DNA of 64,000 nucleotides, from contig JBHGNT010000005.1 in assembly GCA_043228905.1 (NCBI GenBank), positions 24,304,001-24,368,000 on the forward strand, given 5' to 3'. Made by a program: the position numbers and the translations under genes. The notes beneath the pieces are model-generated. The model ran no database searches. It was not told the DNA's origin and saw nothing but the letters and a program-made list of their open reading frames with translations. Of this stretch, positions 1 to 44,100 are shown piece by piece. Source of the DNA: Azolla caroliniana. Its lineage: Eukaryota > Plantae > Polypodiophyta. Each line of letters opens with the position of its first letter. The stretch's first letter is position 1.

Positions 1-3000
1 ACTTCAACTTCTGGAAGGAGCAAATGCAAGATTATTTAATAGTCAAGGGGAAAATCGATCCCATCGAAAATGAAAATGCTCCAGAAGGATATAAGCCCCT
101 TGAATGGGAGAAGCTCGACAGAATTGTCCGAGCCACAATTCGGATGCACCTATCGGAGTCTGTGTACTCTACGGTGCAACCATGTTCGACTGCCTTCCAA
201 CTATGGAAGAAATTTTTGGACACTTACGAAAAGAAGGTCGCCGTCACGAAGATATATTTGATACGACGCCTTTATAACCTTTGGATGAAAGAATCTGATT
301 CGGTCCAGGCACACCTCAATGAGTACGAAAGTCTAAACTCCCAAATTTCGGCACAAGGGACGAGTATCGAGGATGAACTAAGAGCAATACTGCTTATGAG
401 TAGTCTCCCTCCTTCGTGGGAAATTTTCATCACAACTGTGTGCAACTTATCAACTGCGGCCGTGAAATACTCCTCAATCATGAGCGCAATTCTGATTGAA
501 GCAACTCAGAGGAAATTGTTTGCAAATGATTTGACCAATATTGTGTATGTAGTACAAGGTTCGACCGACTGACTGAACAACTGAGGAAGAGGTTCTTCAT
601 GACAGCCAAACAACCAGCGAAGTCGGAGCAAGTCCTGGGATAATCGAGTCTACAACTATTGCAAGAAACCCCGACACATCAAAGCCGATTGTCATGCACT
701 CAAGGATGGAAATGATAAGGCTCAACGAGCGGATCAGAAGAGTGACCGGCATGAGGAGATCAACTACATCGGCTCGTCAATCGAAGTATTGTCGAACGAC
801 CCGAACATTCTATCGATTGAAAACCCAGTCGAATCAGAAATTCTGCTTACGATTGAGGAATCAAGCACATGGCTCTTGGATTTGGGCGCTTCATATCATG
901 TGACACCTCATCGATCACAATTTTGGCAATAATCTGCCCAACATACTGACTCAGTTTGAGTCGGAAACTCGCAATAGTGCACGATTATCAGAATCGGCAC
1001 AGTAGAGCTCAACCTCTCGGGCGGCTCTACACTAGTACTACATAGTGTCCAACATGTACCTGAGCTCTCAAGACCTTTGATCTCAGTTGGACAATTGGAT
1101 GAAGATGGCATCCGTGCCGACTTCTCATCAGGAGGGTGGACACTCCACAGGGGAAACCTCCTGCTTGCTCGAGGACCGAAAGTACACTCGTTGTACCCAC
1201 TATATGTCACACTCAGAGAGGGTGAATTGTTCTTGGTCGACATTCTCGTGTCATGACTTTGGCATGGAAGACTCGGACACCTCAGCAAGGCCGGCATCAC
1301 ACATTTATCCATAGCCGGATACATCCTCAAACTCTCCTTCTCGGATCATCAGTTCTGCGACCATTGCCAATACAGCAATCCGATATCAACACAAAAAGAA
1401 TCGAGTCCCCTTGATTTGGTCCACTCGGACGTCTTTGGTCCTATGCCACATTAGTCTCTTGGCAGTGCCCTGTATTTCGTCAGCTTTATTGATGACTCGA
1501 CTCAGAAGGTGTGGGCTTACCCAATTAAAACTAAAGATCGAGTGTTCTCGATTTTTTCTGATTGGTTCACTATGGTTGAGAATTAGTCTGCTGAAACTGA
1601 AATGCTTTCAGACTAATAACGGGGGAGAGTTCAAATAAGAGGAATTCGTCAAATTTTGCCAACAACGCGGCATAAGACGTTGTCGTGTTATTCTGCATGC
1701 GCAGGAGAAACCAAGGCGGGACTACGGGGGCCCTGAATCAAGGAATAACCGAACAGAGGGAGGAGTGATACAAAACCATGGCCGAGTCACGCACACAAAT
1801 ACACAGAGAACTCACAACGAAGATCGAACAACAAATAAGGCAAATATATACTTATGATCAAGATTACAGCCGGCTAGCCGGTAAGCGTCAACGTGCTTAC
1901 ACCAACTCACACAACGCGAGATGGAGCCTCTGACGGAAGCACTCAGGCTTTCCACGAAGCAGAGGCAGCCTCCCAAAACCTGCAGAGAACAATGAAAGAT
2001 AGAGGAGAAGAGTTCGGTCCCAGTCCGACAACACTTTGTCCTCGACTACCCGATCCCCACTCAGTCCCTTTTCCTCTCCTTTTATAGCCCAAGGAGAGAG
2101 GGACGTTACAATATGTTACATCACTTTTATTCTCTGTCCTTTCAGACAGAGATACCCCTTGATTCCCTACCTAACGAATATGCGCTACCTAGGATATTCA
2201 CATCGCCGATCTGTACCTAACTATGTACAATACATCAAAACATGTGCCCGCGTGTAAGGGCTGGTTCACGCACACTATTCACCGATTCCTCCTAGGGACG
2301 GTTTTCTCCACGAGATCCGCCCCCACCGATAAACCTTTGCTAGAGAAGACCGGCCCGCGCATTCACGTCAGGTTCACCAAATTATGTCATGTTATTCTGC
2401 ACACGCAGGAAAAACCAAGGCAGGACCGTGGGGGCCCTGAATCAAGGAATAACCGAACAGAGGGAGGAGCAACACGAAACCACGACCGAGCCACGCGCAC
2501 AAATACATAGAGAACTCACAACGAAGATCGAACAACGAATAATGCAAATATATACTTATGATCAAGATTACAACTGGCTAGCCAATAAGCATCAACGCGC
2601 TTACACCAACTCACACAACGCACACAAACAACGCGAGATGGAGCCTTTGCCGGAAGACAGAGGAAAAGAGCTTGGTCCCAGTCCGACAACACTTCGTCCT
2701 CGACTACCTGATCCCCACTCAGTCCCTTTTCCTCTCCTTTTATAGCCCAAGGTGAGAGGGACGTTACAATCTGTTACATCACTTTTATTCTCTATCCTTT
2801 CGGACAGAGATACCCCTTGATTCCCTACCTAACGAATACACACTACCTAGGATATTCACATCGTCGATCTATACCTAACTATGTACAATACATCAAAACA
2901 TGTGCCCGCGTGTAAGGGCCGGTTCACGCACACTATTCACTGATTCCTCCTAGGGATGGTTTTCTCCATGACAACGTGAATTTACGGCACCATATAGTCC

Positions 3001-3083
3001 GGAGCAGAACGGAATTGCCGAGCACATGAATTGGACAATTGCCCTGGACTATGAGACGGCTCTTGGACAAAGGCACTGCTTAT
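1..3083 (+). mobile_element. Degenerate Ty1/Copia element (gag, zinc knuckle, protease, integrase), interrupted at 1681-2973 and cut at 3083
   Basis: ORF 24..572 is Copia gag-like (LLMSSLPPSWE). It is followed by a YNYCKKPRHIKADC knuckle, a WLLDLGASYH protease motif and integrase LVHSDVFGP...FIDD. GIRR/EFTAPYSPEQNGIAE reads through once the insert is removed. Confidence 0.9.
1681..2973 (-). mobile_element. Non-autonomous TRIM-like LTR element of the Trp-primed Gypsy group
   Basis: Two similar LTRs (1681-2315, 2385-2973) flank a 69-bp interior with a tRNA-Trp PBS (2363-2379) and a PPT (2316-2327). Exact 4-bp TSD ACGT at 1677-1680 and 2974-2977. Confidence 0.92.
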
Positions 3084-7600: not shown

Positions 7601-8705
7601 CCGTTCCTCCTCAACCGGAAGAAAGCCACCCCCACCAACCTTGAGCTCCCGTAGCGTTATGTTGGTGAACCGGTGGCCTATGCCGGCCAGATCCCATAGA
7701 CTTGGGTTCGACGTGACCCCTTTCTTTCGTAACTCGCTGCCCTCTTGCAAGGTTGCTACAATTGGCCTCACCTTCTGGTCCATAGTCTTGTACTTTGTAT
7801 GCACATGGGCCGTCCGATCCGACTCGATCCCTCTTTCGAAGTCGGCGATGACTTTGTACATCCGTTCCGAACTAACCGGAATCGTCTGGTCTTCACCGAG
7901 GCCTTCTTCGAGCACGTTCCTCAGATCTCCCAAGGTATCGTCAAAAGAGACCGCCTCCACGGCGCTGCCTATCACTTCGTCAGGGCCGAGGACTCCGCAC
8001 GCCCTGAGACGTTCCTCTGCCCGCTTCTTCTCCGAGCCACTAATGCTGGTTATTGTACATCCTCCGTTGTCAGAGAACCAAAATTTCCCGTCTATCGTAC
8101 AGGGTTTTGTTGGGTGGCAGGTCCCTCCGGATGGTGCAGACCCGGTATGAACCGGATGAGGAGTACTCGGGTACGGAGAGCCGGATGGTGCAGACCTAGT
8201 ATGAACTGGATGAAGAGACATATTCGTAAATATGTTTCTGAGTGTCCATCGAGGCTATACTTGTAAATAGCCGAAAAGTCATATTAGTATAAATATGACT
8301 TAGGGCAAACTTTTAGTAAGTTGTTGTTGTTCATTTTCTTGTTGGTGCAAGAAAAGAGAGTGTGTGTGTAACTGTACAGAGATAGAGAGAGAGAAAGAGA
8401 AAGAAGTCGTTGCCTCTGTTGTAACCGCCGCCTGTGGCGAAGATCTGTGAGCACGAGGTCGGTGCCTCAGTGAACTCACGGTTGTATATTCTTACATAGT
8501 GACAGTTTGCAGCCTGTGGGCTGCCGTGGTTTTTCCCCTAGTTTGGGGTTTTCCACATGAACCTCCTGTGTATCTCCCTCTTCTTCTTGTCGTGTTTTAT
8601 TTCCCGTTTTCTGTGTATGATCCTAAGCTCGGTTGTGGCCGAGCGTTGCGTATAGGGAGCGTTGAGTTCCCGTCAAGTGGTATCAGAGCGAAATCGACAC
8701 AGAAA

Positions 8706-11700
8706 ATGGACGAATTGTTTGGCGGCATGTTCAAGCTCACCGGCTCCAACTATTCAGTGTGGAAGTCGAAGATGAGGGACATGCTCGTGGTTAAAGACCT
8801 CTGACTGCCGGTTCAGTTCGGGGACAAGAGAACAGACAAAATCGACGCCGCGATATGGGAGGTGATGCACATGAAGACAACGGCGTACATATAGTGCTTC
8901 ATCGACATGAGCCTGTACAACAATTTCAATGAAGAGAGCAAGGCTCATGAGCTCTGGGAGAAGATCGGCATAATGTTTCAGAACAAAAATGTTGTCAATC
9001 AGGTGTCGGTATTCCAGAAGCTAGTAAGACTCCGGTACCAAGATGGCTCCAGCATGGCGGAGCACATGAATGCCTTCCAGGGGCTGATCCACCAGGCAAC
9101 TTCATTGGAAGTACCTCTCGCCGATGAGGTACTAGCGCTACTCCTGCTCGGTTCCCTCCCGGATAGCTGGGAGACATTGGTTGTCACCTTGCGCAACGCC
9201 GGGCCGGAAGGAAAACGGTTATCCCTAGCAAGAGTAAAGTCGAGCTTGCTAGATGAGGAGGCGCGTCGGAAAGATAAAGATACGAGCTCCGACTCCAAAG
9301 CGCTCCTTACCGAATCGGAACGCGGAAGACATAGAAACCGTAGTCCCCAAAACCGGGAGAAGTCGGGGACACGGTCAAAGTCAAGGGGGAGGCCCACTTG
9401 CTTCTATTGCGGCAAGTCGTGTCACTTCCAAAAGAACTGTCGGCATTTCCGTAAAGACAAGGAAATCGACGGTACCGATTCGAAGTGGACCCCGGACCGG
9501 AACGGTAAAGACCGGAAGTGGACGGACCGGAAGGGAACGACCGCAATCGCGGCAAGTGAAGAAGAGTTGATGCTCATCACCGAGGAGAGTGAGATAAACC
9601 TTGCCGGCGACGAGATGACCTGGGTGGTAGACTCCGAAGCAGCGTTCCACCTTACCCCGGACCGGAAATGCTTCTCATCCTACTCAGCCGGTGACCACGG
9701 CTGTGTCCGGATGGGGAATGAAGGTACATGCCGAATTGTCGGCATAGGAGACGTGTGGCTGTCAACACCAACCGGATGCAAGTTGCTGCTGAAGGATGTC
9801 CGACACGTTCCGGAGGTTCGTCTGAACCTGATATCAGCCGGTCGGCTAGATGATGAAGGCTACACGGGTAGCATCCGGAACGGTGTCATGAAGTTCAGCA
9901 AAGGGAGCCTGATTGTGGCTCGGGCCCGGAAGGTCAACACACTGTACTTGATGAATGCCTGGTTATACCCGGAAGAAGTGAACATGGCATCCGACACTGC
10001 CGGTGAGCTGTGGCACAAGAGGCTGTGTCATATGAGCGAGAAGGGGATGAAGAGGCTTGCAGACGACAACCTCATTCCAGTGAAGAACGTGCACTTAGAG
10101 AAGTGCACTGATTGTCTGGCCGGTAAGCAAAACCGGACCTCCTTCCAACCAAGGCCACCGATGAGACGTAATGCACCACTGGAGTTGGTGCATACGGATG
10201 TGTGTCAAGTAGACACAAAGTCACATGCCGGAGCACAGTACTTCGTGACATTCATAGATGACCACAACCGGAAGCTGTGGGCCACACCGTTGAAGACGAA
10301 GGCTCAGGTGTTATCCGTCTTCAAAGAGCTCCACGCGAGAGTGGAAAGAGAAACTGGCCGGAAGCTAAAGGCGGTTCGAGCAGATAACGGAGGAGAACAC
10401 CGGGGGCAATTCGAGGAGTACTGTCGCTCGAAGGGAATCCGGCTCGAATGTACCGTGCCGAAGACGCCGGAACTAAACGGACTGGCCGAGAGGATGAACC
10501 GGACCATAATGGAGAGGGTTCACAGTATGCTAGCGCATGCAAAACTACCCAAGAAGTTTTGGGCTGAGGCACTGTCGACGGCGACATATGTGATAAATAG
10601 ATCACCCTCAGTACCCTTGGACGGAGACACGCCACAGAGAGTGTGGACCGGTAAGGAAGTATCCTACCGGCATCTGAAGGTGTTCGGGTGTCTCGCGTAC
10701 GTGCATGTAGCTAAGGACCGGAGAGGAAAGTTAGATCCAAAGACCCGGCGATGCATATTCCTCGGTTACGGTGACGATGAGTTCGGCTACCGAGTGTGGG
10801 ACCTGGTCGACAAGAAGGTATTCCGGAGTCGAGATATTATCTTCATGGAGGACAAGACGCTCGCCGACTGGGAGTCGGAGAAGAAGATAATGAACTCCGA
10901 GTCGACCAGTAAGCACTCGAGGGACCAGCCGGTTACGGTGAGGATACCGAACAGGCTGAAGGAGAAGTAGAGGAAGCTGAAACCGGAACCGGCCAAGACC
11001 CCGAATCAGATTTGGATGAAGAGCAGATGGATGAGCCGGTCACCGAAGCCCAGAGATGGAGATATCCTCTCAGAGAGAGAAGGCCCCCCCCGGAGATTTC
11101 CGGATGCAGAGCATGTTCTGCTGACCGATGAAGGGGAACCGGAAAGCTTCGAAGAAGCGAAGGAAGACATCCACAGCCGAAAATGGTTAAGTGCCATCCA
11201 ATATGAGATGGATTCCCTGCATGAGAACCATACGTACGAATTGATGGAGTTGCCGAAAGGAAAGCGGGCACTCCGAAACAAGTGGGTGTACAAGTTGAAA
11301 CCGGGAGATGCCGGCAACCCCCCGAGATACAAAGCCAGGATCGTGGTGAAGGGGTTCTAGCAGAAGAAGGGCGTGGACTTCGACGAGATATTTGCCCCGG
11401 TAGTAAAGATGACCTCCATCCGGACGGTGCTGAGTATAGCGGCAAGCATTGACCTCGAGGTAGAGCAGCTAGACGTGAAGACGACATTCCTTCACGGCGA
11501 CCGCGAAGAGGAGATCTACATGCAGCAACCAGAAGGTTTTCGTGAAGAAAGGGAAGGAGCACCTGGTATGCCGGTTGAAGAAGAGCCTCTACGGGTTGAA
11601 GCAGGCCCCCCGGCAATGGTACCGAAAGTTTGACTCCTTCATGACCGATCAAGGGTACCGCAAGACGCAGGCCGATCACTGCGTGTTTGTGAAGAAGTTC

Positions 11701-12692
11701 GAAGGAGGCGACTTCCTAATACTCCTTCTGTACGTCGATGACATGTTGATTGTCGGACGTGACCAAGTCAAAATACGGATGCTGAAGAAGGCTCTAAACC
11801 GGACCTTCTCAATGAAAGACTTGGGTCCGGCAAGACAGATGATGGGGATGCACATCATTCGAGACCGGTCAGAGAAGCAATTATGGCTGTCACATGAGAA
11901 GTACGTGACAAAGGTGCTTCACCGGTTCAACATGTCAGATGCGAAACCGGTCGGATCGACACTTCCGGCAAACTGCAAGCTGTCCGGTAAGCAAAGCCCG
12001 AAGACGAAAGCAGAGAAGGCGGATATGATGAAGATTCCATATGCCTCTGCCGTCGGGAGCTTGATGTATGCAATGGTTTGTACCCGACCGGACATAGGAT
12101 ACGCAGTCGGAGTGGTGAGCCGGTTTATGAGCAATCCCGGCAAGGAGCACTGGAACGCGGTCAAATGGATACTCCGGTATTTGAAGGGCACTTCAAATAT
12201 GTGTCTCTGATTCGGTTCCGGAAAACTAGCCGGTCGGACATGTCGGCTGATGTGGATACCAGCCGGTCTACATCTGGGTGTGTAATGACATATGCAGGGG
12301 GAGCTGTTTCGTGGCAGTCGAGGCTGCAAAAGACGATTGCATTGTCAACCACGGAGGCGGAGTATATGGCGGCTGTGGAAGCCGGCAAGGAAATATTATG
12401 GATGAAGGACTTCATCGGAGAGCTCGGTATCCGGCAAGAGGAATATCGACTCTATTGCGATAGTCAAAGTGCCATCCACCTTGCTAAGAATGCGGCCTAC
12501 CATTCCCGGATGAAGCATATCCAGCGGAGGTATCACTGGATCCGGGAAAGAGTAGATGACCAGGAGTTCGCACTGACGAAGATTCACACGGCTGAGAACG
12601 GGTCAGATATGCTGACCAAAGTGCTGACACCCGACAAGTTGGACGCATGCCAGAAGAGGATCGGACTGGTAAGACACCCCATGCAGGAGTGA
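8706..12692 (+). pseudogene. Copia gag-pol polyprotein with a few stops and frameshifts
   Basis: ORFs 8907..10970, 11016..11360, 11373..11633, 11542..12210 and 12078..12692 carry the CFYCGKSCHFQKNC knuckle, WHKRLCH, YVDDML and HSRMKHIQRRYHWIRE motifs. Confidence 0.93.
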
Positions 12693-12721
12693 AGGGGGAG
12701 TTTGTTGGGTGACAGGTCCCT

Positions 12722-12920
12722 CCGGATGGTGCAGACCCGATATGAACCGGATGAGGAGTACCCGGCTACAGAGAGCCGGATGGTGCAGACCCGGTATGAA
12801 CCGGATGAGGAGTACCCGGCTACGGAGAGCCGGATGGTGCAGACCCGGTATGAACCCGATGAGGAGTACCCGGCTACGGAGAGCCAGATGGTGCAGACCC
12901 GGTATGAACCGGATGAAGAG
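12722..12920 (+). repeat. 54-bp tandem repeats in the 3' LTR (about 3.7 units)
   Basis: Units start at 12722, 12776, 12830 and 12884. Confidence 0.92.
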
Positions 12921-18243: not shown

Positions 18244-18435
18244 ACAGAAGTCATTACGTATCTGGACATAGATCAATTGGTATCCAAATAAGCCGACATG
18301 TCTGAATCAGTACAACCTTCCAATATGGGGTTACTTGAGCCGAATCAAAGGCACACGCTCTAGGTACCAAAGTATCTATTTCACTGTAACCCAATGCTCT
18401 CTTCCAGGATTGCTCATATACCAACTGATGACTGT
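18244..18435 (-). mobile_element. Copia RT/RNase H junction fragment
   Basis: Minus strand reads YMSNPGREHW...LEGCTDSDMSAYLDT. Confidence 0.75.
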
Positions 18436-30117: not shown

Positions 30118-30134
30118 TGGTGAACCCGACGTGA
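30118..30134 (+). promoter_or_regulatory. Primer-binding site complementary to the 3' end of plant tRNA-Trp
   Basis: TGGTGAACCCGACGTGA is the reverse complement of TCACGTCGGGTTCACCA (plant cytosolic tRNA-Trp 3' end, from memory). The same PBS occurs in four copies. Confidence 0.85.
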
Positions 30135-30157
30135 AGGAGGCGGCAGAAGAGCAGAAG

Positions 30158-32242
30158 ATGAGGGGGTCGGATCTTGCAGAGGCCATGGCTTCGGCCGTGG
30201 ATCGGATTGTAAACGCGCGCGAGGGCACCGGTGCCCTCGACAGAGCCATTGAGGCGGTCGTCGGCACGATCGGCCGGTTCGATGGGAAGGATGCCACGAA
30301 GTATTTGGCGTCCTACGGTGCAGAGATGCTGATGCGGGACATTCCGGAAGAAAGGCGTCTTGCCGGATTTCCCCGAGTGGCGATGCCGAGCATCCATGCG
30401 GAGGTGCTCGAGGTGCGGGCGGAGAGCCGTACCTGGGAGGAGTTCGAAGGTCGGCTCCTAGAGAAATACGGGCTGGACGACGCGCTCCGGCTTTCGAAGC
30501 GAAGGTTCATGGAATGGGTGGAGTCCTCGGGGAAGGGAAGAAACGCGTTGGCACTCCTCCGGGAGTTCGAGGAAAGCTTTGCGCGCCTTTCGGCGCTCGA
30601 CCGAACCATCCTGGACACGAGCCGGGTCTTGCTGTTTGTCAAGTCGGTCGACGAGCGGGATCGGGAGCAAGTGGGCCTCTTGCTGGAAACCGAAGACGGG
30701 CTCACTACCGACTGGGCGGCTGTCAAAAAAGTATGTGGCCGTTTCGACAAACGGCGAGAATGGGCGGACAACGGGGCAACCGGGTCGGGCTCGGTCGCAG
30801 GAAGGGAGCTCGAACCAGCGCCACAGGTGCGAAAGGAAGAGACCCGAGAGTGGTTGGAAACTGGTTCGGCTTCGACCGGCGTAGTCAGAGGCTCAACCGG
30901 AGGAGCGGCGCTGGAGGAATTGACGAGGGCGATAAAGGACCTCCAAATCGCGCAAGCCCGAAGGGAAGGTGGCGAACCGGCTCGTGACCGACGGCCGGCG
31001 GCAGGAAACAGGTGCATGTGGTGCGATGAAGTCGGCCACATTCGGAAGGACTGCGGCGACTTCGCGGAGGCGCTGAGGAACAGGGTGGTGTACCTGTGGG
31101 AAGGACGGGTGCATGCCAGCGACACCCGAAGGGCTCTGAGCCGAAACGACGGGCGAGGTGGTATGAAAGGGTTGATGGAAGAGGCAGCGGCCCGACATGC
31201 GGAAACCGTCCACTACTCGGCGTCGGCCGGCATTCGAGTCGGGGGCGGCGAGGCCCGAAGGGAAAGCAAAGCCGGATTCTGGCCGACGATGCTGGAAGGC
31301 CTTGCCGGTGCAAGGCTTAAAGGGGAGGAATCGGACCGTGCGGAGAAACGGGTACGGGAGATGACCGGGTGGAGCGACCCGGTCGAGGAAAAGACGGGCT
31401 TCGTGGAAGCCGCTTGCCAGAACTACGAGGCTCTGGTAGAAGAGAAGCGGGTGGGGAAACCCGGGACGACCGGGCCCTCACATCGATACGAGACCCGGTC
31501 CGGGCCACGACGGGACGAAGCCGGCGGGGCCGGTACGCAAGATAGACCCCAGAAGGGCGGGTACCGTCTGGGGACGGAGATAGAAAGGACCACGGACTTA
31601 CGAAAGGTCCTGGAGGAACGGATCCTCGACAGCAAGGAGTTCCACGACTCCATCGTGGACTTGGTGAAACGGAAGAGGCTGTCAACGGAGACCGAACCGG
31701 AAAGACTGGTGGAAGTGCGGACGACGCACCTAGACGACATGGCGCTGGGGGACGAGTGGGCGGAAAGCCACTATTCGAGACCACACTGGGCCCGAGCGAC
31801 CACGGAAACCCCGGTGAAGATCGGCGATGTCCAGGAACCGGTGATAGCTTTGGTGGACCACGGATCGGAGATCAATTTGATGTCCATGGACTTCTATAAG
31901 AAGGGTAAATGGCCGATCAACACCAAGCACGGGTGGAAAATAAGGGCAGCAACGCGCGCCACCGAGGAACTGCACGGGGCCTGTCCGAATGTGCGAGTCA
32001 AGATCGGCGACGTGGAGATTGACCAGCACTTCTTCGTGCAAGAGACGTCTTCACATCCGGTCATACTGGGAGAGCCGTACATCACGGCGGCGCGAATGGA
32101 GACCAAGGTGCTGGACAATGGTTCGGCCTACGCGAGGGTCAAAAGCCAAGACGGGCGCCATTCGGTCCAGTTTCTGACGGTACGGCCGAACCACGAACGT
32201 AACCGCGAATCCCTCGGTTCCGAAAACCGAGAGGATTTTTAG
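30158..32242 (+). CDS. ORF1: Gag, CCHC knuckle and aspartic protease
   Basis: ATG at 30158 (MRGSDLAEAM); CMWCDEVGHIRKDC; ALVDHGSEINLM...VILGEPY; ends REDF-stop. Confidence 0.93.
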   Translation: MRGSDLAEAMASAVDRIVNAREGTGALDRAIEAVVGTIGRFDGKDATKYLASYGAEMLMRDIPEERRLAGFPRVAMPSIHAEVLEVRAESRTWEEFEGRLLEKYGLDDALRLSKRRFMEWVESSGKGRNALALLREFEESFARLSALDRTILDTSRVLLFVKSVDERDREQVGLLLETEDGLTTDWAAVKKVCGRFDKRREWADNGATGSGSVAGRELEPAPQVRKEETREWLETGSASTGVVRGSTGGAALEELTRAIKDLQIAQARREGGEPARDRRPAAGNRCMWCDEVGHIRKDCGDFAEALRNRVVYLWEGRVHASDTRRALSRNDGRGGMKGLMEEAAARHAETVHYSASAGIRVGGGEARRESKAGFWPTMLEGLAGARLKGEESDRAEKRVREMTGWSDPVEEKTGFVEAACQNYEALVEEKRVGKPGTTGPSHRYETRSGPRRDEAGGAGTQDRPQKGGYRLGTEIERTTDLRKVLEERILDSKEFHDSIVDLVKRKRLSTETEPERLVEVRTTHLDDMALGDEWAESHYSRPHWARATTETPVKIGDVQEPVIALVDHGSEINLMSMDFYKKGKWPINTKHGWKIRAATRATEELHGACPNVRVKIGDVEIDQHFFVQETSSHPVILGEPYITAARMETKVLDNGSAYARVKSQDGRHSVQFLTVRPNHERNRESLGSENREDF

Positions 32243-32298
32243 AGAGGACTGCCAAGGCGTGGGGCCGCGACAGTCCGGATGCTCCGGGAAAACCCCAC
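32233..32298 (+). promoter_or_regulatory. Predicted -1 ribosomal frameshift signal (slippery heptamer plus H-type pseudoknot)
   Basis: G_GAT_TTT at 32233-32239, then TAG; stem 1 32246-32253/32269-32276; stem 2 GTGGGG 32259-32264/CCCCAC 32293-32298. Conserved in four copies. Confidence 0.82.
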
Positions 32299-35200
32299 AT
32301 CTGTACGATAAAACCGTGTACAATAGGTAGAAAAATTTGCTTCTCCGACAGCGGAGCATGTACGATGGTCGGCATCGCCGGCCGAGAGAAAACAAAGACG
32401 GAGGGGAGACTTCGAGCGTGCGGAGTTCTCGGCCCTGACGAAGAAATCAACGGAGCCGTGGAGACAGTCTCCTTCGACGACACCTTAGGAATGCTCGGGA
32501 AGGTAGTCGAAGGAGACCTTAACGGAGACCGGACGATACCGGTATGGTCCGAAGAAATGTACGAAGTCATCGCGGGCTTCGGTCGAGGGCTCGAGTCGGA
32601 ACGGACGGCCCGAGTTAGCACCAAGTACAAGACTGTGGACCGGAAGGTGAGGCCAGTTGCGGCGCCCTTACCGGAGGGCAGCGAATCCCGAATCAAAGGG
32701 GTTGCATCGGACCCCAGCTTACGAGATCCGGCCTGCATAGGACACACCTTCACCAACGAGATGCTCCGCGAGCTGAAGATCGGTGGGGGCGGGTTCCTAC
32801 TGCCGGCGGAGGAAGACCGGTTTCGGAGAATGCTCGGAAGGCACGGAAAAGCCTTCGCATTCTCACCGGAGGAAATCGGGTGCGTAAACCCGACGATCGT
32901 AGAGCCGATGGTGATATTCACGGTACCGCATGTACCGTGGAATCTCAAGCCAATTCAGGTTCCGAGAGCTCACATCCCGAAGTTGATGGAGCTGTTGAAG
33001 CAGAAAGTTGATATGGGCATTCTCGAGCCGTCGAGCGCCCCGTATTCAAACCGATGGTTTACCGTACCAAAGAAAAACGGATCGTTGCGCTTCATTCAGG
33101 ACCTGCAGCCGGTCAATAGAGTGACCATTCGGAACGCAGGGATCGGACCGACCATAGACGAGTTCGCGGAGGCCTTCGCCGGAAGGTCGATCTACTCGGT
33201 CGGTGATCTATACTCAGGGTACGACCAGTTCCAGCTAGCCGTGGAGAGCAGAGACATTACGACGATGCGAACTCCCCTCGGCCTAGTGCGGATGTGTACG
33301 CTGCCGCAAGGAGGGACCAACTCGGTGGCCCACATGGTGAATGCAATGAACAAGGTGCTGAGGGACTGCATCCCGGACATCACCATGCCGTTTCTAGACG
33401 ACATCCCGATCAAGGGGTGCCCGGTAGAAGAGAAGGACGAGACGATCGGGCCGGACGGATGCCGGCGATTCGTGGTGACGCACATCGACGACTGCGAGAA
33501 GGTGCTGCAAAGGCTAGAGGGTGCGAAGCTCACCTTCTCGGGGGAGAAGTCAGCCTTCGGGCAGTCGGAAATCATGGTGGTCGGACATTTATGTGGACCA
33601 TATGGCCGGAAACCGTCTCCGGCAAAGGTAGAAGCCATCTCCGCGATGAAGCCTGATTGCAGCTCGGTCACGGAAGTACGAAGATTCTTGGGAGCATGCG
33701 CCTTCTACCACATATGGATCCCGCATTACGCGCACGTCGCGGAGCCGCTGTACGGATTATTGAAGAAAGGGCGAAGATTCGAATGGCTAGACAAGCACAC
33801 GGAGTCGGTCCGGAAGCTGAAGGAGGCTCTTTCGGCAGCACCGGCGCTCCGAAAGGCCGTCTACAGGAAGGGCACCCCAGTGTACATAACGGTTGACACG
33901 AGTCCGACCGGAATCGGGTGGGTCGTCAACCAAGAAGACGAGGACGGCAATCGGTTTCCGATCCGATTCGGCGCGAAGGTCCTCAGTGAGCGGCAGCGAG
34001 GATACGCCCAGGTTAAACGCGAACTCTGGGGTATCGTTTCGGCGGTGAAGGCCGACAAGGACTATCTGATCGGGGCAGAGGTAATCATAGAGACGGATTG
34101 CATGCCGATTCTCGGCATGGTTTCCGGATGCGCGACGCCGGACCTGGCAATGCTCAGGTGGATAGCGTACATCAAGTCCCTGGACCCGGAAATACGACAC
34201 ATTTCCGGGAAAGACAACGCCATGGCCGACATGCTTTCAAGGGCTAGATTCGATGACGAGGGCGGCATGGTTTCGGAGGACGAAGAGGTCGGCGTGGACT
34301 TCTTCGAGGCGGCATACGTAACAACCGGCGGGACGAGCACTCCGGCGCTTAACGACTTCGACGCGAGCAAGTACGACGGGGAGTGGCTGCAGATCGACGG
34401 GTTCTTGAGGACAATGGCGCCGGATACGTCATGGACGAAAGACGAGGCCAACCGGATCCGGAAGAAAGCGTACCGGTTCTTTCTCCGGGATGGCTATCTA
34501 TGGAAGCACCCGAAGAAGAGGGACGGCGCTCCGCTCCGGGTGGTGGCGACGAAGGAGGAACAGGAGGAGCTGCTGACGGCCTACCACGACAGCCCTTGGG
34601 CCGGACACCGTGGAACTTGGGCCACGTTCGAGAAGATAAAGGAGAAGTACTGGTGGCCGGGACTGTACCGGGACGTGCATCGATTCGTGACAACTTGCGA
34701 GAGCTGTCAGATGCACTCCGTGGTCCGACACCGGGACGAGCTTCACCCTACGTACCCTCCGACCATCCACTTCAAATGGATGGTAGATCTGGTGACGATG
34801 CCAATGGGGGTAGGACAGATGCGGTACCTGGTCCTGGCGCGGGAGGATCTAACGAACCAGGTGGAAGGCCGGGCCCTTCCCAACAAAACGACCGCGGCCG
34901 TATGTCGGTTCCTAATCGAGGACGTGATATGCCGGTACGGGTGCGTCGGGAAGATCGTGGCTGACCGAGGGGAATTGGACGCCGAAGAAGCCGCGGAGCT
35001 GTTCGACCGGCTGGGAGTCAAGCTCTCGCTCACCACTGCGTACAATCCGGAGGCGAATGGAAAGGTGGAGCGCGGACACGGACCGATCGTCAAGGCGCTG
35101 GTTCGAGCATGCGGGGGCCAAGTCGGTAACTGGCCGCGGCTGCTACCTTATGCTTTGTGGGCAGACCGGACCACGCACAGTTCGGTAACCGGGTACATGC

Positions 35201-35721
35201 CGACGGAGCTCATGTTCAGCCAGAAGCCGATCATGCCGATGGAACGGACGATCTCCTCGTGGGCAACGGTCGACTGGAAGGACGAGATGAGCCGGGAGGA
35301 GTTGTTGGCCGCGCGTATGCGACAGCTCGAGCGGAGACCGGAGGACGTGGAACTGGCTGCGGAGAAGCTCCGGGTGGCGAGGACAAAGAACAAAGCCAGG
35401 TTCGACCGAACGCACCGGCTCCGACCGAAGAAAATCGAAGAAGGTGACTGGGTGCTCGTCTACGACAGCAGCCTCGACAACCAGCACCGAGCTACACGGA
35501 AGTTCGCACGAAGGTGGTTCGGGCCTTACGTGGTACGGAGCGCCAATGACAACGGGACATATCACCTGGCGGAACTAGACGGCACGAGAATGGCGATACC
35601 GGTTGCAGGGAAACGGATCAAAGCGTTCAAGAAGCGACACAACGACGAGCCAGACCCGACTCTCCTAGTCAGCAGTGACGAACGATCCGAAAACGAGGAA
35701 GAACCGACGGGCGAGGAATGA
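32239..35721 (+). CDS. ORF2 (-1 frame): RT, RNase H and integrase
   Basis: The frame is open from the slip site through the 1118-aa ORF 32365..35721. Motifs: DLYSGYDQ, LPQG, FLDD, VDTS (RNase H), HHCC, D-D-E, GPY. Confidence 0.95.
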   Translation, partial: LERTAKAWGRDSPDAPGKPHICTIKPCTIGRKICFSDSGACTMVGIAGREKTKTEGRLRACGVLGPDEEINGAVETVSFDDTLGMLGKVVEGDLNGDRTIPVWSEEMYEVIAGFGRGLESERTARVSTKYKTVDRKVRPVAAPLPEGSESRIKGVASDPSLRDPACIGHTFTNEMLRELKIGGGGFLLPAEEDRFRRMLGRHGKAFAFSPEEIGCVNPTIVEPMVIFTVPHVPWNLKPIQVPRAHIPKLMELLKQKVDMGILEPSSAPYSNRWFTVPKKNGSLRFIQDLQPVNRVTIRNAGIGPTIDEFAEAFAGRSIYSVGDLYSGYDQFQLAVESRDITTMRTPLGLVRMCTLPQGGTNSVAHMVNAMNKVLRDCIPDITMPFLDDIPIKGCPVEEKDETIGPDGCRRFVVTHIDDCEKVLQRLEGAKLTFSGEKSAFGQSEIMVVGHLCGPYGRKPSPAKVEAISAMKPDCSSVTEVRRFLGACAFYHIWIPHYAHVAEPLYGLLKKGRRFEWLDKHTESVRKLKEALSAAPALRKAVYRKGTPVYITVDTSPTGIGWVVNQEDEDGNRFPIRFGAKVLSERQRGYAQVKRELWGIVSAVKADKDYLIGAEVIIETDCMPILGMVSGCATPDLAMLRWIAYIKSLDPEIRHISGKDNAMADMLSRARFDDEGGMVSEDEEVGVDFFEAAYVTTGGTSTPALNDFDASKYDGEWLQIDGFLRTMAPDTSWTKDEANRIRKKAYRFFLRDGYLWKHPKKRDGAPLRVVATKEEQEELLTAYHDSPWAGHRGTWATFEKIKEKYWWPGLYRDVHRFVTTCESCQMHSVVRHRDELHPTYPPTIHFKWMVDLVTMPMGVGQMRYLVLAREDLTNQVEGRALPNKTTAAVCRFLIEDVICRYGCVGKIVADRGELDAEEAAELFDRLGVKLSLTTAYNPEANGKVERGHGPIVKALVRACGGQVGNWPRLLPYALWADRTTHSSVTGYMPTELMFSQKPIMPMERTISSWATVDWKDEMSREELLAARMRQLERRPEDVELAAEKLRVARTKNKARFDRTHRLRPKKIEEGDWVLVYDSSLDNQHRATRKFARRWFGPYVVRSANDNGTYHLAELDGTRMAIPVAGKRIKAFKKRHNDEPDPTLLVSSDERSENEEEPTGEE

Positions 35722-35780
35722 AGACGGGCCGGTTTTCTCCGTCCCAACTCTCTTGGCGCATATCGGAGGATGCGCGGTTA

Positions 35781-35792
35781 GGTGGGGGCGGA
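35781..35792 (+). promoter_or_regulatory. Polypurine tract
   Basis: GGTGGGGGCGGA directly before the 3' LTR. Confidence 0.85.
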
Positions 35793-37430
35793 TGTCGTGA
35801 AGAAAACCGTCCCTAGGCGGAATCGGCGCACCAAGGCGTGGGAACCGGTTCTTCGCGCGCGCACGCTCCAAGTTGTACATAGAAGAGAGTTAGGAGGATA
35901 ATCGGCAGGAACGGGCCCTAACACGAGTGGAGACAAAAACCGCGCGAACAGTCTCTTCGGTGGCGCGCGCGAGCTAAGGAACTGCACGAGTCGGCGGCGT
36001 AACTACGCGGATGCGTGAAGAACGGAGCGGATCCCTGTTCGAAAGGGACAGGGAATAAAGCTGACAGGACGGCCTGCTCGTCGGCCTATATAAGGAGCAG
36101 GAAAGAGCTGTTGCAGGGATCTCGCGCGGAGAGGACGAAGTGCTGTCGGACCGTTTCTGGACGCTTCTCTCTCTGTTTTCTTCCTTCTTGAGCTCCATAG
36201 CTTTCTTGTGCAGGGTTCCGGGGAGGCTCGCGCTGTTTCGAGGAACGCCCGAGTGCTTCCGGCAGCACCTCCGACCTGCTACCCCTTTTGTGCGTCGAAG
36301 CGAACAAGCATCGGCATCTGTTCGCCGGCCTGTTCGGCTGTAGCCAACCTGTGCCCCATCGAGGGTTGTAGTCGTGTTAGCCATTTTCTTAATATACATA
36401 TTTAGTCATTCGCATCTGTCTGTGTCGGTGTTTGTTCGCGTTCTCCGTGCTGAAGGGTCGTGTCCCTGTGTATCCCCGGTCCTGCGTAGCCGGTTCTCTC
36501 TCTTTCTCCTCCCTCGCTTGCTCTTTGGTTCGAGACCCCCGCGGTCCCGCCTCGTTTCCACACGCACTTGCATAATATCTCGACACTGTATAACGGCTCC
36601 GTGACGTGAGCGTAATGCGGGATCCATATGTGGTAGAACGCGCACGCTCCCAAGAACCTCCGAACCTCCGTGACCGAGCTACAGTCGTTCTTCATCGCGG
36701 AGATGGCTTCTACCTTAGCCGGAGACGGTTTCCGGCCGTACGGCCCACATAGGTGTCCGACAACCATGATCTCTGATTGCCCGAAGGCCGACTTTCCCCC
36801 GGAGAAGGTGAGCCTCGCGCCCTCCAACCTTTACAGCACCTTCTCGCAGTCATCGATGTGCATCGCCACGAATTTCCGGCATCTGTCCGGTCCGATTGTC
36901 TCGTCCCTTTCCTCCACCGGGCATCCCTTGATTGGGACGTCGTCCAAAAACGGCATGGTGATGTCCGGGATACAATCCCTCAGCACCTTGTTCATTGCGT
37001 TCACCATGTGAGCCACCGAGTTCGTCCCTCCTTGCGGTAGGGTACACATCCGTACTAGGCCGAGAGGAGTTCGCATTGTCGTGATGTCTCTGCTCTCTAC
37101 GGCAAGTTGGAATTGATCATACCCCGAGTAGAGATCACCGACCGAGTAAATCGACCTTCCGGCGAAGGCCTCCGCGAACTCGTCTATTGTCGGTCCGATT
37201 CCGGCGTTTCGAATGGTCACCTTGTTGACCGGCTGCAGGTCTTGAATAAAGCGCAGCGTGCCGTCCTTCTTCGGCACGGTAAACCACCGATTCGAGTATG
37301 GGGCACTCGACGGTTCGAGGTTTCCCATCTTGACCTTCTACTTTAACAGCTCCATCAGCTTCGGGATGTGAGCTCTGGGTACTGGAATCGGTTTGAGACT
37401 CCACGGCACATGCGGTACCGTGAATATCAC

Positions 37431-37686: not shown

Positions 37687-40481
37687 CGATTTTGAGCTCG
37701 CGCAGCGTTATGTCGGTGAACGTGTGTCCTATGCGGGCCGGATTTCGTAAACTCGGGTCCGACGCAACCCCCTTTATTCGCAACTCGTTGTCCTCCAGCA
37801 AGGGAGCCGCGACTGGCCTCACCTTCCGGTCCACAGTCTTGTACCTCGTGTCCACCCGGGCCATCCGATCCGACTCGAGCCCTCTACTGAAGTCCACGAT
37901 GACTTCGTACATCTTTTCCGAACATACCGGAATCGTCCGGTCCTCTTTAAGAACTCCTCCGACTACCTCCCGCAGCTCCCCCAAGGTATCGTCGAAAGAG
38001 ACCGCCTCCACGGCTCCGTTGATTTCCTCTCCGAGGTCGAGGACGCCACATGCCCGAAGTCGCTCCTCCGCCCTTCTCTTCTTCCGGCCAACAACGTCGA
38101 CTATCGTACACCCTCCGTTGTCAGAGAACCAAAATTTCCTACTTATAGTACAGGTCTTCTTCGCTATCATACACTTGTGGGGTTTTCCCGGAGTGTACGG
38201 ACTATCGCAGCCCCAAGCCTTGATAGCCCTCTTCAAAAATCCTCCCGGCTTTCGCCCCCGAGGGTCTCGCGGTTCCTCTCATGGTTCGGTCTCACCGTCA
38301 AGAACTGGACCGAGTGACGCCCATCCTGGCTCTTGACCCTTGCATAGGCCGAGCCGTTGTCCAACACCTTGGTCTCCATCTGTGTTGCCGTGATGTACGG
38401 TTCTCCGAGTATAACCGGATGCGAGGACGTCTCCTGCACGAAGAAGTGCTGGTCAATCTCGACATCGCCGATCTTTACTCGTACGTTTGGGCAGGCTCCA
38501 TGCAGTTCTTCGGTGGCTCGCGTCGCCGCCCGTATTTTCCACCCGTGCTTGGTGTTGATCGGCCATTTTCCCTTCTTATAGAAGTCCATGGACATCAAGT
38601 TGATTTCTGAACCATGGTCCACCAACGCCACCACCGGTTCATGAACATCTCCGATCTTCACGGGGGTCTCCGTGGTCGCTCTGGCCCAGTGCGGCCTGGA
38701 ATAGTGGCTCTCCGCCAACTCGTCTTCCAGCGCCATGTCCTCTATGTGCGTCGTTCGCACCTCCACCAGCTTCTCCGGTTCTGTCTCTGTCGACAGCCTC
38801 TTCCTCTTCACCAAGTCTACGATGGAGTCGTGGAACTCCTTCTTGGCAATCCCGAGCACTTCCTTCAGCGATAGCTCCACCTTGCTGTCGAGGATTCGTT
38901 CTTCCAGGACCTTTCGCAGGTCCGTGGATCTTTCGATTTCTGAGCCCAGCCGGTACCCACCCTTCTTGGGATTATCCTGGGCGCCGGTTACAATGGCCTC
39001 ATTCCGTCTTTGCCCGAATCGAGTTTCATATCGCTACGAGGGCCCGGCCTCTCCGGTTTTCCCTACTCGCTTGTCCTCCACCAGAGCCTCGTAGTTTGGA
39101 CAAGCGGCTTCGACAAAGCCCGTCTTTTCTTCCACCGGGTCACTCCACCCGGTTACCTCCCTGACCCGTTTTTCCGCACGGTCCACCTCTTCTTTCCTCA
39201 GCCGTGCGCCGGCGAGGCCTTCCAGCATCGTCAGCCAGAACCCGGCTTTGTTCGTCTTCGGGGCCTCGCCACCTCCAACCCGAATACCAGCTGACACCGA
39301 GTAGTGGACGGTCTCCGCGTGACGAGCCGCCGCCTCCTCCATCAGCCTTTTCATACCCCCTCGCCCGACGTTCAGGTTCAGGGCCCTTCGGGTCTCGCTA
39401 GCGTGCACCCGACCGTTCCACAAGTACACCACGTTGCTTCTCATCGCCTCGGTGAAGTCCCCGCAGTCCTTCCGGATGTGCCCAACCGCGTCACACCACA
39501 TGCACCTGTTTTCAGCCAGAGGTCGTCGGTCACGGGCTGTTCGCCACCATCCCTCCATGCCTGGGCGATCTTGAGATCCTTTACCATCCGCGTCAGCTCC
39601 TCTAGAGCTGCTCCCCCGGACGAGCCCTTGATCATGCCGGTTGAAGCCAATCCGGTCTCGAGCCAATCTTGGGTCTCTTCCCTTCGCGTTGGTGGTGTTG
39701 GCTTGAGCTTCTTTGCTGCGACAGAGCCCGCCCCTGTCGATCCTTTGTCAACCCATTCCCGCCGTTTGTCGAAACGGCCACAGACCCTTTTCACCACGGC
39801 CCAGTCGTCCGTCAGCCCGTCATCAGTCTCCAATAGGAGGCCTACCTGCTCCCGATCCCGCTCGTCAACCGACTTAACAAACAATAGGACACGGCTTGTG
39901 TCCAGAACGGTCCGGTCAAGCACCGAGAGGCGCGCGAAGCGTTCCTCAAACTCCCGGAGGAGCACTGACGTGTTCCTTCCTTTGTCGGGGGTCTCCACCC
40001 ACTCCATGAAGTCCCGCTTCGAAAGTCGAAGCGCATCTTCAAGCCCGTATATTTCGAGGAGCCGACCTTCGAACTCCTCCCAGGTCCGGCTCTCGGCCCG
40101 TACCTCGAGCACCTCCGTATGGATACCCAGCATCGCCACTCGAGGGAATCCGGCTAGACGCCTCTCTTCCGGAATGTCCCTCATTACCATCTCAGCCCGG
40201 TAGGACTCCAAGTAGCTCGTGGCATCCTTCCCACTGAACCGGCCGATTGTACCGACAACCGCCTCGATAGCCCTATCAAGGGCGTCGGTGCCTTCGCGCG
40301 CACTCACTATACGGTCTACAGCCGAAGCTATGGCTTCTGCAAGGTCTAACCCCCTCATCTTCTACTCCTCTGCCGCCTGTTCACGTCGGGTTCACCAAAT
40401 ATGTCGCGTTGCTACGCGCGTGCGTGGAGAACGAGGCGGGACCACTGGGGTCTTGGACCGAGGAATAGGTGAGGAAGCGAA

Positions 40482-40520
<39 letters not shown>

Positions 40521-41105
40521 GCTCACACACGGATAGACAAAGAAGAGCGCGGGACGCAGCCCAATCAACACAAGAGACACAAGTTGGGCGGGAGATAGAG
40601 CATAAAAACGTGTATATAAATATATGTATGCAGATGACTCGAACGGTTACAACCGATCAGGTCGGCGAGACGGGTGTCGACGCCTGATCACCCACGCACA
40701 CAGGGGAGCAAGATGGAGACTCTGCCGGAAGCACACGGGCGTTCCACGGAGCAAAATCAGCCTCTCGAGAACCTACGCAAAGAAAGCTATGGAGAACGAC
40801 AGAGGAGAAGAGCTCGGTCCCAATCTGACAGCACTTCGTCCCCTCTAGTGCGCGATACCTCTCTCCCCCCCGTCTCCCTCTCCTTTATAGCTCAAGGAGG
40901 GAGGCCGTTCACCCGTTTACATCACATTAATTCTCTGTCCTTTCGGACAGAGATACTCCTCGATTTCCCCTATAGAATATTGCTACCTAGGATTTAACCT
41001 TTGTGCCTACCTATCTACTACACAACAAGGGGCGTGCCCACATGTAAGGGCCGGTCCACACACACTATACACGGTTTGCGCCTGGGGACGGTTTTCTTCA
41101 CGACA

Positions 41106-44100
41106 ACGTTAACTTTCACATGGTATCAAAGCGTGAGGGTTGAGAACCTCTACATCCAACATTTGCTTTCGTAGACGAACCCTAGAACCCAATAACAACA
41201 GACAAAGAGAAGATATGGACAGAGGAATGACAAGTTCACTTCCAACAGAGAAGCTCGACCGAAGCAACTACGCATCCTGGTCATACAAGATACACCAGTA
41301 CCTGTTGGGGCATGGATATTGGAGCTTCGTGGAACGAACGAACGAGGTAGCACCGGAGCTGGCACACGAGGACTTTCTGATATGGGAGCAAGGAGTGAGC
41401 CGAGTATTGTATTGCCTCGCGTCTTGTGTGCACGACCAGATGCTCGGCTACATAAAGGATGCAAAAATGCCGAAGGAGGCCCGGGGAAATGTGAGGAAGA
41501 TTTTCACCGCGAGTACTACAGCCCGTAAGTTGCAGCTCCGGCAAGAGTTGAACAACATCCAACAAAGAGACATGTCGGTTACGTATTACACCACCAAAAT
41601 AAAGGAGATTTGTGAAGCACCCATGTCCATCAACATGACGGTGGACGAAGACAAGATGGAACAAATATGCCTCAGTGGTCTAGCGCAAAGGTACGGGCCA
41701 ATCTGAACAGCGATCTTCACCCGGGAGAAACCACCGACTTTCTTCAACTTGCAATCGATGCTAGTGATCGAAGAAAACCACGCGAGTGGGTCGAGGACCA
41801 CTCAATCGGACGGTCGGATGTTGTACACGGAGACAGATCGGCCCCATGGGCGTGGTAGACGAGGTGGGTCGGCACGCAATGGAGGCGGCCGGCAAGAGCA
41901 AGACTGGAGGCATAGAGGTAGTGCCGACAACAGTTCTAAACCCTCCACAAGCAGGGGGAGTCAAAGCGGCACCGGAAGCCGGCAAGGAAAAGCCGACACG
42001 GAAACTGGTATTGTGGCAAAAAGGGCCACAGGGAAAGCGAGTGTTGGAAGAGGCACGCTGATTCGGACAAATCCGGATCCGGCAAGGCCGGTCGGGAAAA
42101 CTAGCAAAGCTCACACTACACAGAAGGATCGGAAGGATCCAGAACCGGGAAGACCGGTAAAGGGCCAGCCTTCGTGATGAAGCACAAGGCTAACTCGATG
42201 AAGAAGAATACTTCCGGATCAAAGGAAGTATGGTATGTTCATTCCAGTGCATCAAACCACATGACGAGCCACGAAGAGTGGTTCTCCTTTTTGGAAAAAC
42301 CGGAACAACCGGGGATCGTCGAAACCGGAGACGATACCCCTCACCCGATTGTGCATGTCGGAGAAATCCCTTTAAGCCATGTCAAACAAAAGGGGAAGTT
42401 GATGAACGTACTACACGTTCTGACTATCACAAAGAGCTTGGTATCGGTCAGACAAATCATCGACCAGGGAATGCAGGTGCGGTTTATGCACCTCGGGTGC
42501 TTCATTGAGGAAGAAGGCCGAATAATTGCACAAGGGCATAGAGAAGGTAGGATGTTCATCCAAAACACTAATGACGTCGGCACCACCATGTTTGCTAAAG
42601 GACAGAAGATTGAATCGGACATCAATCTCTTGCATAAGCGGATCGGCCACATCAACTACCGGAGGCTTCAAGTCCTGCAATCGAAACAAGTTGTGTTCGG
42701 ATTGCTGAAATTCAGTCGCCGAAAAGCCCAAATATGTGAAGCCTGCCAACTCGGGAATCAAAACCGGCTTCCATTCCCCACTGAACGAAACCGGAGCCGT
42801 AACAAGCTTGATCTAATACATTCGGATGTATGGGGACCGTCACAGAACGTTAGTCTTGGCGGGAGTCGATACTTCGTCTCCTTCATCGACGACTACAGGC
42901 GGCACACGTGGATCTACCTCATCAAATGGAAGAGCAAAGTCTTCGAATGTTTCTGAAACCTTCAAAGCTTGGTTGAATGGGAAACGGAGAGGAAGATCAA
43001 GTGTCTACATTCGGATGGTGGAAAATAATACTTTTCCGGCCAATTCAACAGTTATCTACAGCAGAACGGAATTCGAAGAGAATTCAGCTACGGATACACA
43101 CCGGAGCAAAATGGTGTGGCCAAAAGGAAGAACCAGTCAATTGTCAACGCGGCAAGGGCAATGTTGGAGGAGAAGAGCATGCCCCATTTCTACTGGGTTG
43201 AGGCGGTCCAAACGGCCGTCTATATCCAAAACCGGATCGATGACAAGGTGTCAGCACACGAGTTGTATTTCGGACGCAAGCCGAATTTGAGACACCTTCG
43301 GATATTCAGCAGCATAGCATATGTGCATGTACCGGATGAGAAGCGGAGGAAGCTAGATCCGAAGTCAAAGAAGTGCATTCTAGTCGATTACTCGCATGAG
43401 CAGAAGGGGTATAACTTATATAACCCCCTGACGAAGCAAGTCCGAGTAAGCCGAGATGTCGAGTTTGATGAGACGGCATCATGGTACTCCCTACTGACTC
43501 CAACTCCCGACGAAGAACCGATTCCGGAAGATGAGGCTAGTGAGCCCGAGGAGGTCCAAGAGAAGATGAAGAACTCAGCACTCGAGAAGAGAGTCTGATC
43601 TCATTCCGACTAAGTGGACCGAATGAGCGCCTAAGTCGGGATGACTAGTCGGATGAGGAACCGGCGAGCAATGGAGACCCTGTCGTGCTCTCCCCGCGCA
43701 AGGAACTGAGGAGATGGTTCACGCGCAAAGAGAAAGGGAAGCAGAAAATGTCGAAATATGAAGCCGGCAACGTTGAGTCCGATCAGAGCGAATCCGAATC
43801 CGGAAAGGATGAAAGCGGATCTTTGGGAATGAAGTCCGAACCGGCCAAGAAGGGCCCCAAACCGGGTGATGACAAGTTACGTCGGTCTTCCCGCTAGAAG
43901 AACCCCGTTACGCCGTTTGGGTACAATGAGTACATGGCACATCACTATGCGTACATGACCAAAGTGGCAGAAGTGCGTGAGCCAGAGAGCTACGCAAAAG
44001 CGGCAAAGGACGCAAATTGGCGTGCCGCTATGAAGGAAGAAACGCGGGCACTCAATGCCAATGACACATGGGACCTCGTTGACCCTCCCCGACACTGTAA

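What the first reader, a model, noticed from the sequence alone, without database searches (positions are those of the whole stretch)
1677..41109. Trp-primed Gypsy group inserts with 4-bp TSDs centred on CpG at all six readable sites
Seen: the flanks are ACGT/ACGT (1677, 2974), GCGT (16299), CCGT (16647), CCGG (21831), CCGT/CTGT (29317, 36586) and ACGT (41106), all N-CG-N. Four of the six are one-sided, so their TSD is inferred. Copia and solo-LTR flanks in the same window are 5 bp with no CG (GGTTT, AAAGG). The single TSD mismatch is C-to-T at the CpG. Known: plant LTR elements mostly make 5-bp TSDs with weak sequence bias. Inference: an integrase lacking a chromodomain reads CpG, possibly methyl-CpG, directly. 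That would steer it into CpG-rich TEs and away from AT-rich gene space, which would explain this nested island.
Basis: partly seen in the sequence, partly recalled or inferred. Interest (0 to 1): 0.82.

Follow-up and report, generated by a model that had tools for sequence, protein, structure and literature searches.

The report
Phygy-like retrotransposon that inserts at CG
This plant Ty3/gypsy retrotransposon group inserts almost only at four-base sites with CG in the middle, a habit already published for the moss Phygy lineage, and its integrase likely reads the DNA letters themselves rather than their methylation.

Summary
1033 of 1144 outer flanks of one LTR start are NCGN, against 3.95% background. 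26 of 33 two-sided sites are exact 4-bp duplications and none is 5 bp; all 33 keep CG on at least one side. It is not new: Neumann 2019 (PMC6317226) lists Phygy as 4-bp NCGN (100% of 186 elements), tRNA-Trp-primed, with no extra domain. Added here: (1) the motif is tighter, VCGB (994 of 1033, against 45% expected); (2) flanks of 76 insertions match randomly drawn VCGB sites in CpG density and repeat content, so sequence alone accounts for the drift into CpG-rich transposon islands; (3) the integrase has a conserved Glu at the foamy-virus Ala188 target-contact position and a conserved C-terminal loop, both candidate readers. The methyl-CpG idea found no support and was not excluded: no methylation data were available, and decay of the duplicated CpGs is strand-symmetric. 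Phygy membership by phylogeny could not be tested.

The parts
29321..36585 (+). Young full-length Phygy-like Ty3/gypsy element, 7265 bp (family A)
   Evidence: LTRs 29321-30113 and 35793-36585, 99.87% identical; termini read
29317..29320 (+). Left target-site copy CCGT
36586..36589 (+). Right target-site copy CTGT (C-to-T at the CpG)
30118..30134 (+). Primer binding site, read as tRNA-Trp (the tRNA assignment is recalled, not from a call)
   Evidence: the same site occurs at three other window LTRs and in 34 of 80 metagenome relatives
30104..32242 (+). ORF1: Gag with a weak zinc knuckle, and a protease-like motif read by eye
32203..35721 (+). ORF2: RT, RNase H, integrase; no chromodomain, no extra RNase H, no methyl-DNA-binding domain found
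34972..34974 (+). Integrase Glu158, aligned to foamy-virus Ala188 (target contact); candidate base reader
   Evidence: alignment; Glu in 75 of 76 aligned sequences
35464..35514 (+). C-terminal-domain loop (integrase residues 322-338) ahead of the GPY/F motif; candidate reader of the central CG
   Evidence: Gln328 69 of 76, His329 68 of 76, Lys334 and Phe335 75 of 76; role inferred from PFV Arg329
1677..2977 (-). TRIM-like LTR pair (1681-2973) with ACGT/ACGT duplication, inserted in a Copia integrase
15632..16302 (-). Family B 5' LTR with outer flank GCGT at 16299, inside a family-D LTR
16330..16650 (+). 3' part of a family D LTR with outer flank CCGT at 16647
21831..22489 (-). Family C 3' LTR with outer flank CCGG at 21831
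40402..41109 (-). 5' LTR of the element hosting the young copy; outer flank ACGT at 41106, near the end of a Copia LTR
8103..13386 (+). Control: Copia element with 5-bp GGTTT duplication
52990..53418 (.). Control: solo-LTR-like TG..CA stretch with 5-bp AAAGG on both sides

Best explanation
These Trp-primed Ty3/gypsy elements insert almost only at VCGB sites with a 4-bp duplication, and their integrase likely selects the site by reading the DNA sequence and shape itself, with no need for methylation. Shown: the motif, the 4-bp length, the lack of a chromodomain, and flanks that match random VCGB sites. Inferred: as in retroviruses that make 4-bp duplications, the intasome must kink the target at a central pyrimidine-purine step and disfavours T at the first and A at the last position. 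Lineage-specific contacts would narrow that step to CG; the candidates are Glu158 and the conserved C-terminal loop. Because most VCGB sites lie in GC-rich transposons, nesting follows passively. The duplicated CpGs then decay to TG or CA, likely through methylation after insertion.
For: 1033 of 1144 outer flanks are NCGN. 994 of 1033 are VCGB, against 45.2% of CG 4-mers in 600 kb of background. 26 of 33 two-sided sites are exact at 4 bp, 0 at 3, 5 or 6 bp, and all 33 have CG on one side. Flank CpG per base: 76 insertions 0.054, random VCGB 0.056 (p=0.49), random positions 0.039 (p=5e-7), Copia 0.038. Repeat-hit flanks: 67 of 76 against 1226 of 1500 random VCGB sites (p=0.17). Serrao 2015 (PMC4422553, passages) reports that 4-bp-duplication retroviruses favour a central YR step and disfavour T at 0 and A at +3, the same edges as VCGB. 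The integrase's best PDB matches by sequence and fold are the PFV and Ty3 integrases. Drosophila ZAM-group elements target CGCG (PMC5408687, passages) in a genome with little CpG methylation (recalled). Left-flank decay is strand-symmetric: 40 CA of 81. CpG decay inside LTR pairs is the same in VCGB and other contexts, 44 of 746 against 48 of 709.
Against: No methylation data were seen. Most VCGB sites lie in repeats, which are likely methylated, so the null cannot cleanly separate plain CG from methyl-CG. The repeat fraction is slightly above the null (88% against 82%, null interval 74-88%), and 2 of the 9 no-hit flanks are old transposons by Pfam. The duplicated CpGs decayed in 5 of 24 elements against 1.7 expected from their own LTRs (P about 0.02, post hoc), and this is unexplained. 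The residue roles rest on alignment only: the model had no DNA, and its pTM was 0.57. The flank sample is 76 sites from one contig.
Confidence: 0.7

Rival explanations
1. The integrase needs or strongly prefers methylated CpG, and so reads the host silencing mark directly to land in silenced transposons.
For: 88% or more of flanks are repeats. Target CpGs decay faster than LTR CpGs, 5 against 1.7 expected. A 1992 paper on CpG methylation and retroviral integration in vitro exists, but I saw only its title in a reference list (not held).
Against: Flank CpG density and repeat share fit a sequence-only null. There is no strand asymmetry of the kind deamination in the integration gap would leave (40 of 81). 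No MBD, SRA or chromodomain was found at E up to 10. CpG decay, a proxy for methylation, does not differ between used and avoided contexts.
Confidence: 0.15
2. A host DNA-binding factor tethers the intasome to CG-core motifs and so sets the site, as TFIIIB does for Ty3.
For: ACGT is the commonest duplication, 28 of 76 against 5% of background CG 4-mers. Ty3 integrase is among the nearest solved structures.
Against: CG sits exactly at the centre of the cut in nearly all sites, which a bound factor would be expected to block or offset. Positions outside the duplication are only weakly biased. The same motif occurs in relatives from other samples (3 of 3 clean flanks) and in published Phygy.
Confidence: 0.1
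3. The pattern is an artefact of CpG-rich surroundings, of boundary calling, or of selection after insertion.
For: The island is CpG-rich, 0.072 per base.
Against: 90% against 4-8% background. Copia flanks from the same genome show 1 of 32 NCGN. Boundaries are fixed by shared LTR termini and by uninterrupted homologues.
Confidence: 0.01

Closest known systems
Phygy, non-chromovirus Ty3/gypsy clade of Physcomitrella patens (Neumann et al. 2019, PMC6317226)
   Same: 4-bp duplication, NCGN motif, tRNA-Trp primer site, no extra domain, coding region filling nearly all of the interior. Nesting of Phygy into other LTR elements is also published (PMC6911290).
   Different: Copies here are about 6.7-7.3 kb where not nested or deleted, below the listed 7656-9968 bp. 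The motif is resolved to VCGB. The ORF layout, listed as not determined for Phygy, is two overlapping frames here. Named relatives occur in Riccia, Adiantum and Chara.
TatI (OTA/Tat non-chromovirus)
   Same: 4-bp duplication and tRNA-Trp primer
   Different: TatI carries an additional archaeal-type RNase H in 100% of listed copies; none was found here. No NCGN is listed for TatI.
Selgy (Selaginella non-chromovirus)
   Same: 4-bp duplication, compact element, no extra domain
   Different: tRNA-Ala primer, about 5 kb, no sequence motif listed
Drosophila errantivirus-group elements (ZAM/Tirant CGCG, gypsy TATA, Idefix ATAT)
   Same: Ty3/gypsy integrases with sequence-specific 4-bp targets
   Different: Other lineage. 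They lack the GPY/F motif, which is present here, and their motifs are alternating rather than CG-centred.
Prototype foamy virus intasome
   Same: 4-bp duplication, central YR step, T and A disfavoured at the edges; best structural match
   Different: Only a modest YR bias (about 63% above random, averaged over four viruses) against near-absolute CG here; Ala188 where this lineage has Glu

Membership tests
Ty3/gypsy LTR retrotransposon | LTR pair with TG..CA ends, primer site, polypurine tract, RT-RNase H-integrase order | tested here: met
Phygy | Placement in the Phygy clade in RT/RH/INT trees (the basis of the lineage definition) | not testable with these tools
   No labelled Phygy or Physcomitrium protein appeared among the 120 + 120 listed hits, and the supplement tables I read hold no sequences
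Phygy | 4-bp target-site duplication | tested here: met
   26 of 33 exact at 4 bp, 0 at 3, 5 or 6 bp
Phygy | NCGN target motif | tested here: met
   1033 of 1144
Phygy | tRNA-Trp primer binding site | tested here: met
   Same 17-base site at four window LTRs; the assignment to tRNA-Trp rests on recalled tRNA knowledge, no tRNA gene was fetched
Phygy | No chromodomain, no extra RNase H, no extra ORF | tested here: met
Phygy | Size 7656-9968 bp (descriptive; the paper calls size insignificant for classification) | tested here: inconclusive
   7265 bp in the window and mostly 6.7-7.3 kb: slightly below the range from one other species
TatI | Additional archaeal-type RNase H domain | tested here: not met
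   No such Pfam family at E up to 10 in either ORF
Chromovirus (Tcn1, Reina, Tekay, CRM, Galadriel) | Chromodomain at the integrase C-terminus | tested here: not met
Selgy | tRNA-Ala primer site | tested here: not met
Fungal Ylt1-like elements | Placement in the Ylt1 clade | not tested
   Lead from memory only; two papers read in passages gave no target motif, and no named fungal hit appeared among 10 distant proteins looked up

The most novel reading that the evidence does not exclude
The Phygy-like integrase is a direct methyl-CpG reader with no known reader domain. It would use its catalytic core and C-terminal loop to pick methylated VCGB sites, so a streptophyte-wide lineage (Chara, liverworts, ferns) would target host-silenced DNA without a chromodomain.
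Probability: 0.12. Interest if true: 0.75.

Novelty: new member of a known kind. Interest (0 to 1): 0.28.

Why it matters
The headline is already in print for Phygy. What remains is modest but usable: a plant LTR integrase with near-absolute dinucleotide specificity, a sharper motif (VCGB), evidence that this preference alone can account for nested CpG-rich islands, and two named candidate contact sites. These make the mechanism testable on purified protein. My searches found no paper on how Phygy reads CG or on whether methylation matters (open-access library only, and for most hits I saw only the listing). If methylation did matter, it would be a new route by which a transposon finds silenced DNA.

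Tried and rejected
Bisulfite runs: none was listed for window 27900-29400; this is no evidence either way. Footprint of deamination in the integration gap: none (40 CA of 81). Context-dependent CpG decay as a link between VCGB and methylation: none (p=0.52). Genes in the 9 no-hit flanks: 19 ORFs scanned; two flanks gave transposon domains above cut-off, none gave a host gene above cut-off. Named Phygy reference proteins: none found. Target motif of Ylt1: not given in the passages of PMC5014426 or PMC2864245. PMC12810828 (Cryptococcus) was read in passages and is irrelevant. The 1992 methylation paper is not held. Earlier scan notes were not available. Metagenome relatives: most of the 80 contigs are collapsed; only 3 gave a clean outer flank, and other script matches were internal look-alikes that I set aside. 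Other copies of the TRIM-like form: only the window's own among the held genome loci (not a genome-wide search). Rows dropped before counts: L251 (paired with a nested element's LTR), L281 (a 5' LTR with a worn primer site), L091 (Copia LTR with a cut 5' end). One search excluded T after the LTR end, so it was not used for motif counts.
Full report
Setting. The window lies on contig C5 of a 523-Mb genome. Bases 1-51000 are a nested island of Ty3/gypsy and Ty1/copia elements, about 46-62% GC with little CpG depletion, next to AT-rich sequence. The nearest named relatives of the polymerase are from Riccia (up to about 65-67% identity over the RT-integrase region), Adiantum and Chara, so a non-seed plant is likely (inference).

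The observation. All cited flanks read as stated. The youngest element spans 29321-36585, with LTRs 99.87% identical, two overlapping ORFs and RT-RNase H-integrase order. Its primer site recurs at three other window LTRs; I read it as tRNA-Trp from recalled tRNA knowledge. Its flanks CCGT/CTGT overlap by exactly four bases against three uninterrupted homologous stretches. The ACGT/ACGT pair at 1677/2974 bounds a 1.3-kb LTR pair, and the two sides read as consecutive parts of a Copia integrase motif. The four one-sided flanks are true LTR termini of related families. The two 5-bp controls are present.

Genome-wide test. One exact 20-base LTR start, with a non-G filter at position -14, has 2354 matches. 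1210 end in a polypurine-tract-type flank (99 of the 100 listed rows are clearly that tract), leaving 1144 outer flanks. Of these 1033 are NCGN, 81 have another pyrimidine-purine centre and 30 are something else, against 3.95% central CG in 60 evenly spaced 10-kb stretches. These counts are not deduplicated; a few flanks repeat. Of 60 consecutive sites fetched whole, 35 gave a second flank and two were dropped as mis-called. Of the 33 left, 26 are exact 4-bp duplications and none is exact at 3, 5 or 6 bp; six differ by one C-to-T or G-to-A at the CpG and one has an uncertain end; all 33 keep CG on one side. Four LTR families show CG in 31 of 32, 19 of 27, 22 of 28 and 4 of 7 flanks; 16 of the 18 exceptions are TG or CA. 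Copia controls show 1 of 32. Three clean outer flanks among 80 metagenome relatives (66-79% integrase identity) are all NCGN, and 34 of 80 carry the same primer site.

Already known. Neumann et al. 2019 (PMC6317226; passages, plus one supplementary table read whole) state that Phygy elements prefer NCGN. They list 186 elements with 4 bp (100%), tRNA-Trp (81%) and no extra domain. Jedlicka et al. 2019 (PMC6911290; passages) report GC-rich centres in 4-bp duplications and Phygy nested in Tcn1. The elements here work like Phygy on every trait I could test. The defining tree placement could not be tested, and they are slightly shorter than the listed range, so I call them Phygy-like. TatI, Selgy and chromoviruses each fail a defining feature.

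What is added. First, the motif is VCGB: 994 of 1033 against 45.2% of background CG 4-mers, and all 40 decayed CA flanks keep the same edges (read from the listing). Serrao et al. 2015 (PMC4422553; passages) describe the same edge rule and a central YR step for retroviruses with 4-bp duplications, and name PFV Ala188 and Arg329 as base contacts. Second, 76 flanks from contig C1 have 0.054 CpG per base, like random VCGB sites (0.056, p=0.49) and unlike random positions (0.039) or Copia flanks (0.038). 67 of 76 hit repeats, against 82% of random VCGB sites (p=0.17) and 60% of random positions. Third, the integrase best matches PFV and Ty3 integrases. It has Glu at the Ala188 position in 75 of 76 close relatives, falling to 34 of 107 among proteins under 40% identity. 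It also has a conserved loop before the GPY/F motif. Their role is inferred from alignment only.

Methylation. No methylome was available. Three indirect tests gave no support: the flank distribution fits the null; left-flank decay is strand-symmetric (40 CA of 81); and CpG decay within LTR pairs is equal in used and avoided contexts (44 of 746 against 48 of 709). No methyl-DNA reader domain was found. Drosophila ZAM-group elements target CGCG (PMC5408687; passages) in a genome with little CpG methylation (recalled). Against my reading: target CpGs changed in 5 of 24 full-length elements against 1.7 expected (P about 0.02, post hoc); the repeat share is a little above the null; and since most VCGB sites lie in repeats, these tests have low power. 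The methyl reading is therefore unlikely but open.

Literature limits. Searches for NCGN with retrotransposon, Phygy and two mechanism queries showed no mechanistic study. I read passages of eight papers and only listings of the rest. The library is open-access only, and only five of the Neumann supplementary files were held as text.

Verdict. A real and striking feature, already described for Phygy; a new member of a known kind, with a sharper motif and testable candidate residues. Interest 0.28.

Noticed in passing
window 1681-2973: TRIM-like element: two related LTRs (91% identical without gaps) separated by only 68 bp holding the primer site and the polypurine tract, with an intact 4-bp duplication. 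No other copy among the held loci.
   Followed up: partly
window 32203-32242: ORF1 (Gag plus a protease-like motif) and ORF2 overlap by 40 bases in the -1 frame, with a GGATTTT heptamer just before the ORF1 stop; this looks like a frameshift site (motif type recalled). The Phygy ORF layout is listed as not determined.
   Followed up: no
L245-L301 (24 full-length elements on contig C1): Target-site CpGs decayed about three times more often than CpGs inside the same elements' LTRs (5 against 1.7 expected); cause unknown.
   Followed up: partly
window 8108-13381: Copia element whose right LTR does not end in CA before its 5-bp duplication: a non-canonical terminus.
   Followed up: no
window 30114-30117: Four bases separate the LTR end from the primer site; the spacer length varies among families and relatives.
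   Followed up: no
window 1-51000 against 52000-64000: Sharp boundary from a GC-rich island with little CpG depletion to AT-rich, CpG-depleted DNA with microsatellites and a LINE-like RT remnant at 59878-62039.
   Followed up: no
G000:C1:7222654 and G000:C1:14785093: Two insertions share the same 14-base left flank: either a repeated host site hit twice or a duplicated block.
   Followed up: no
P0170, P0136, P0017: Relatives occur in Chara, Adiantum and Riccia, so the lineage is wider than the single moss species for which Phygy was defined.
   Followed up: partly
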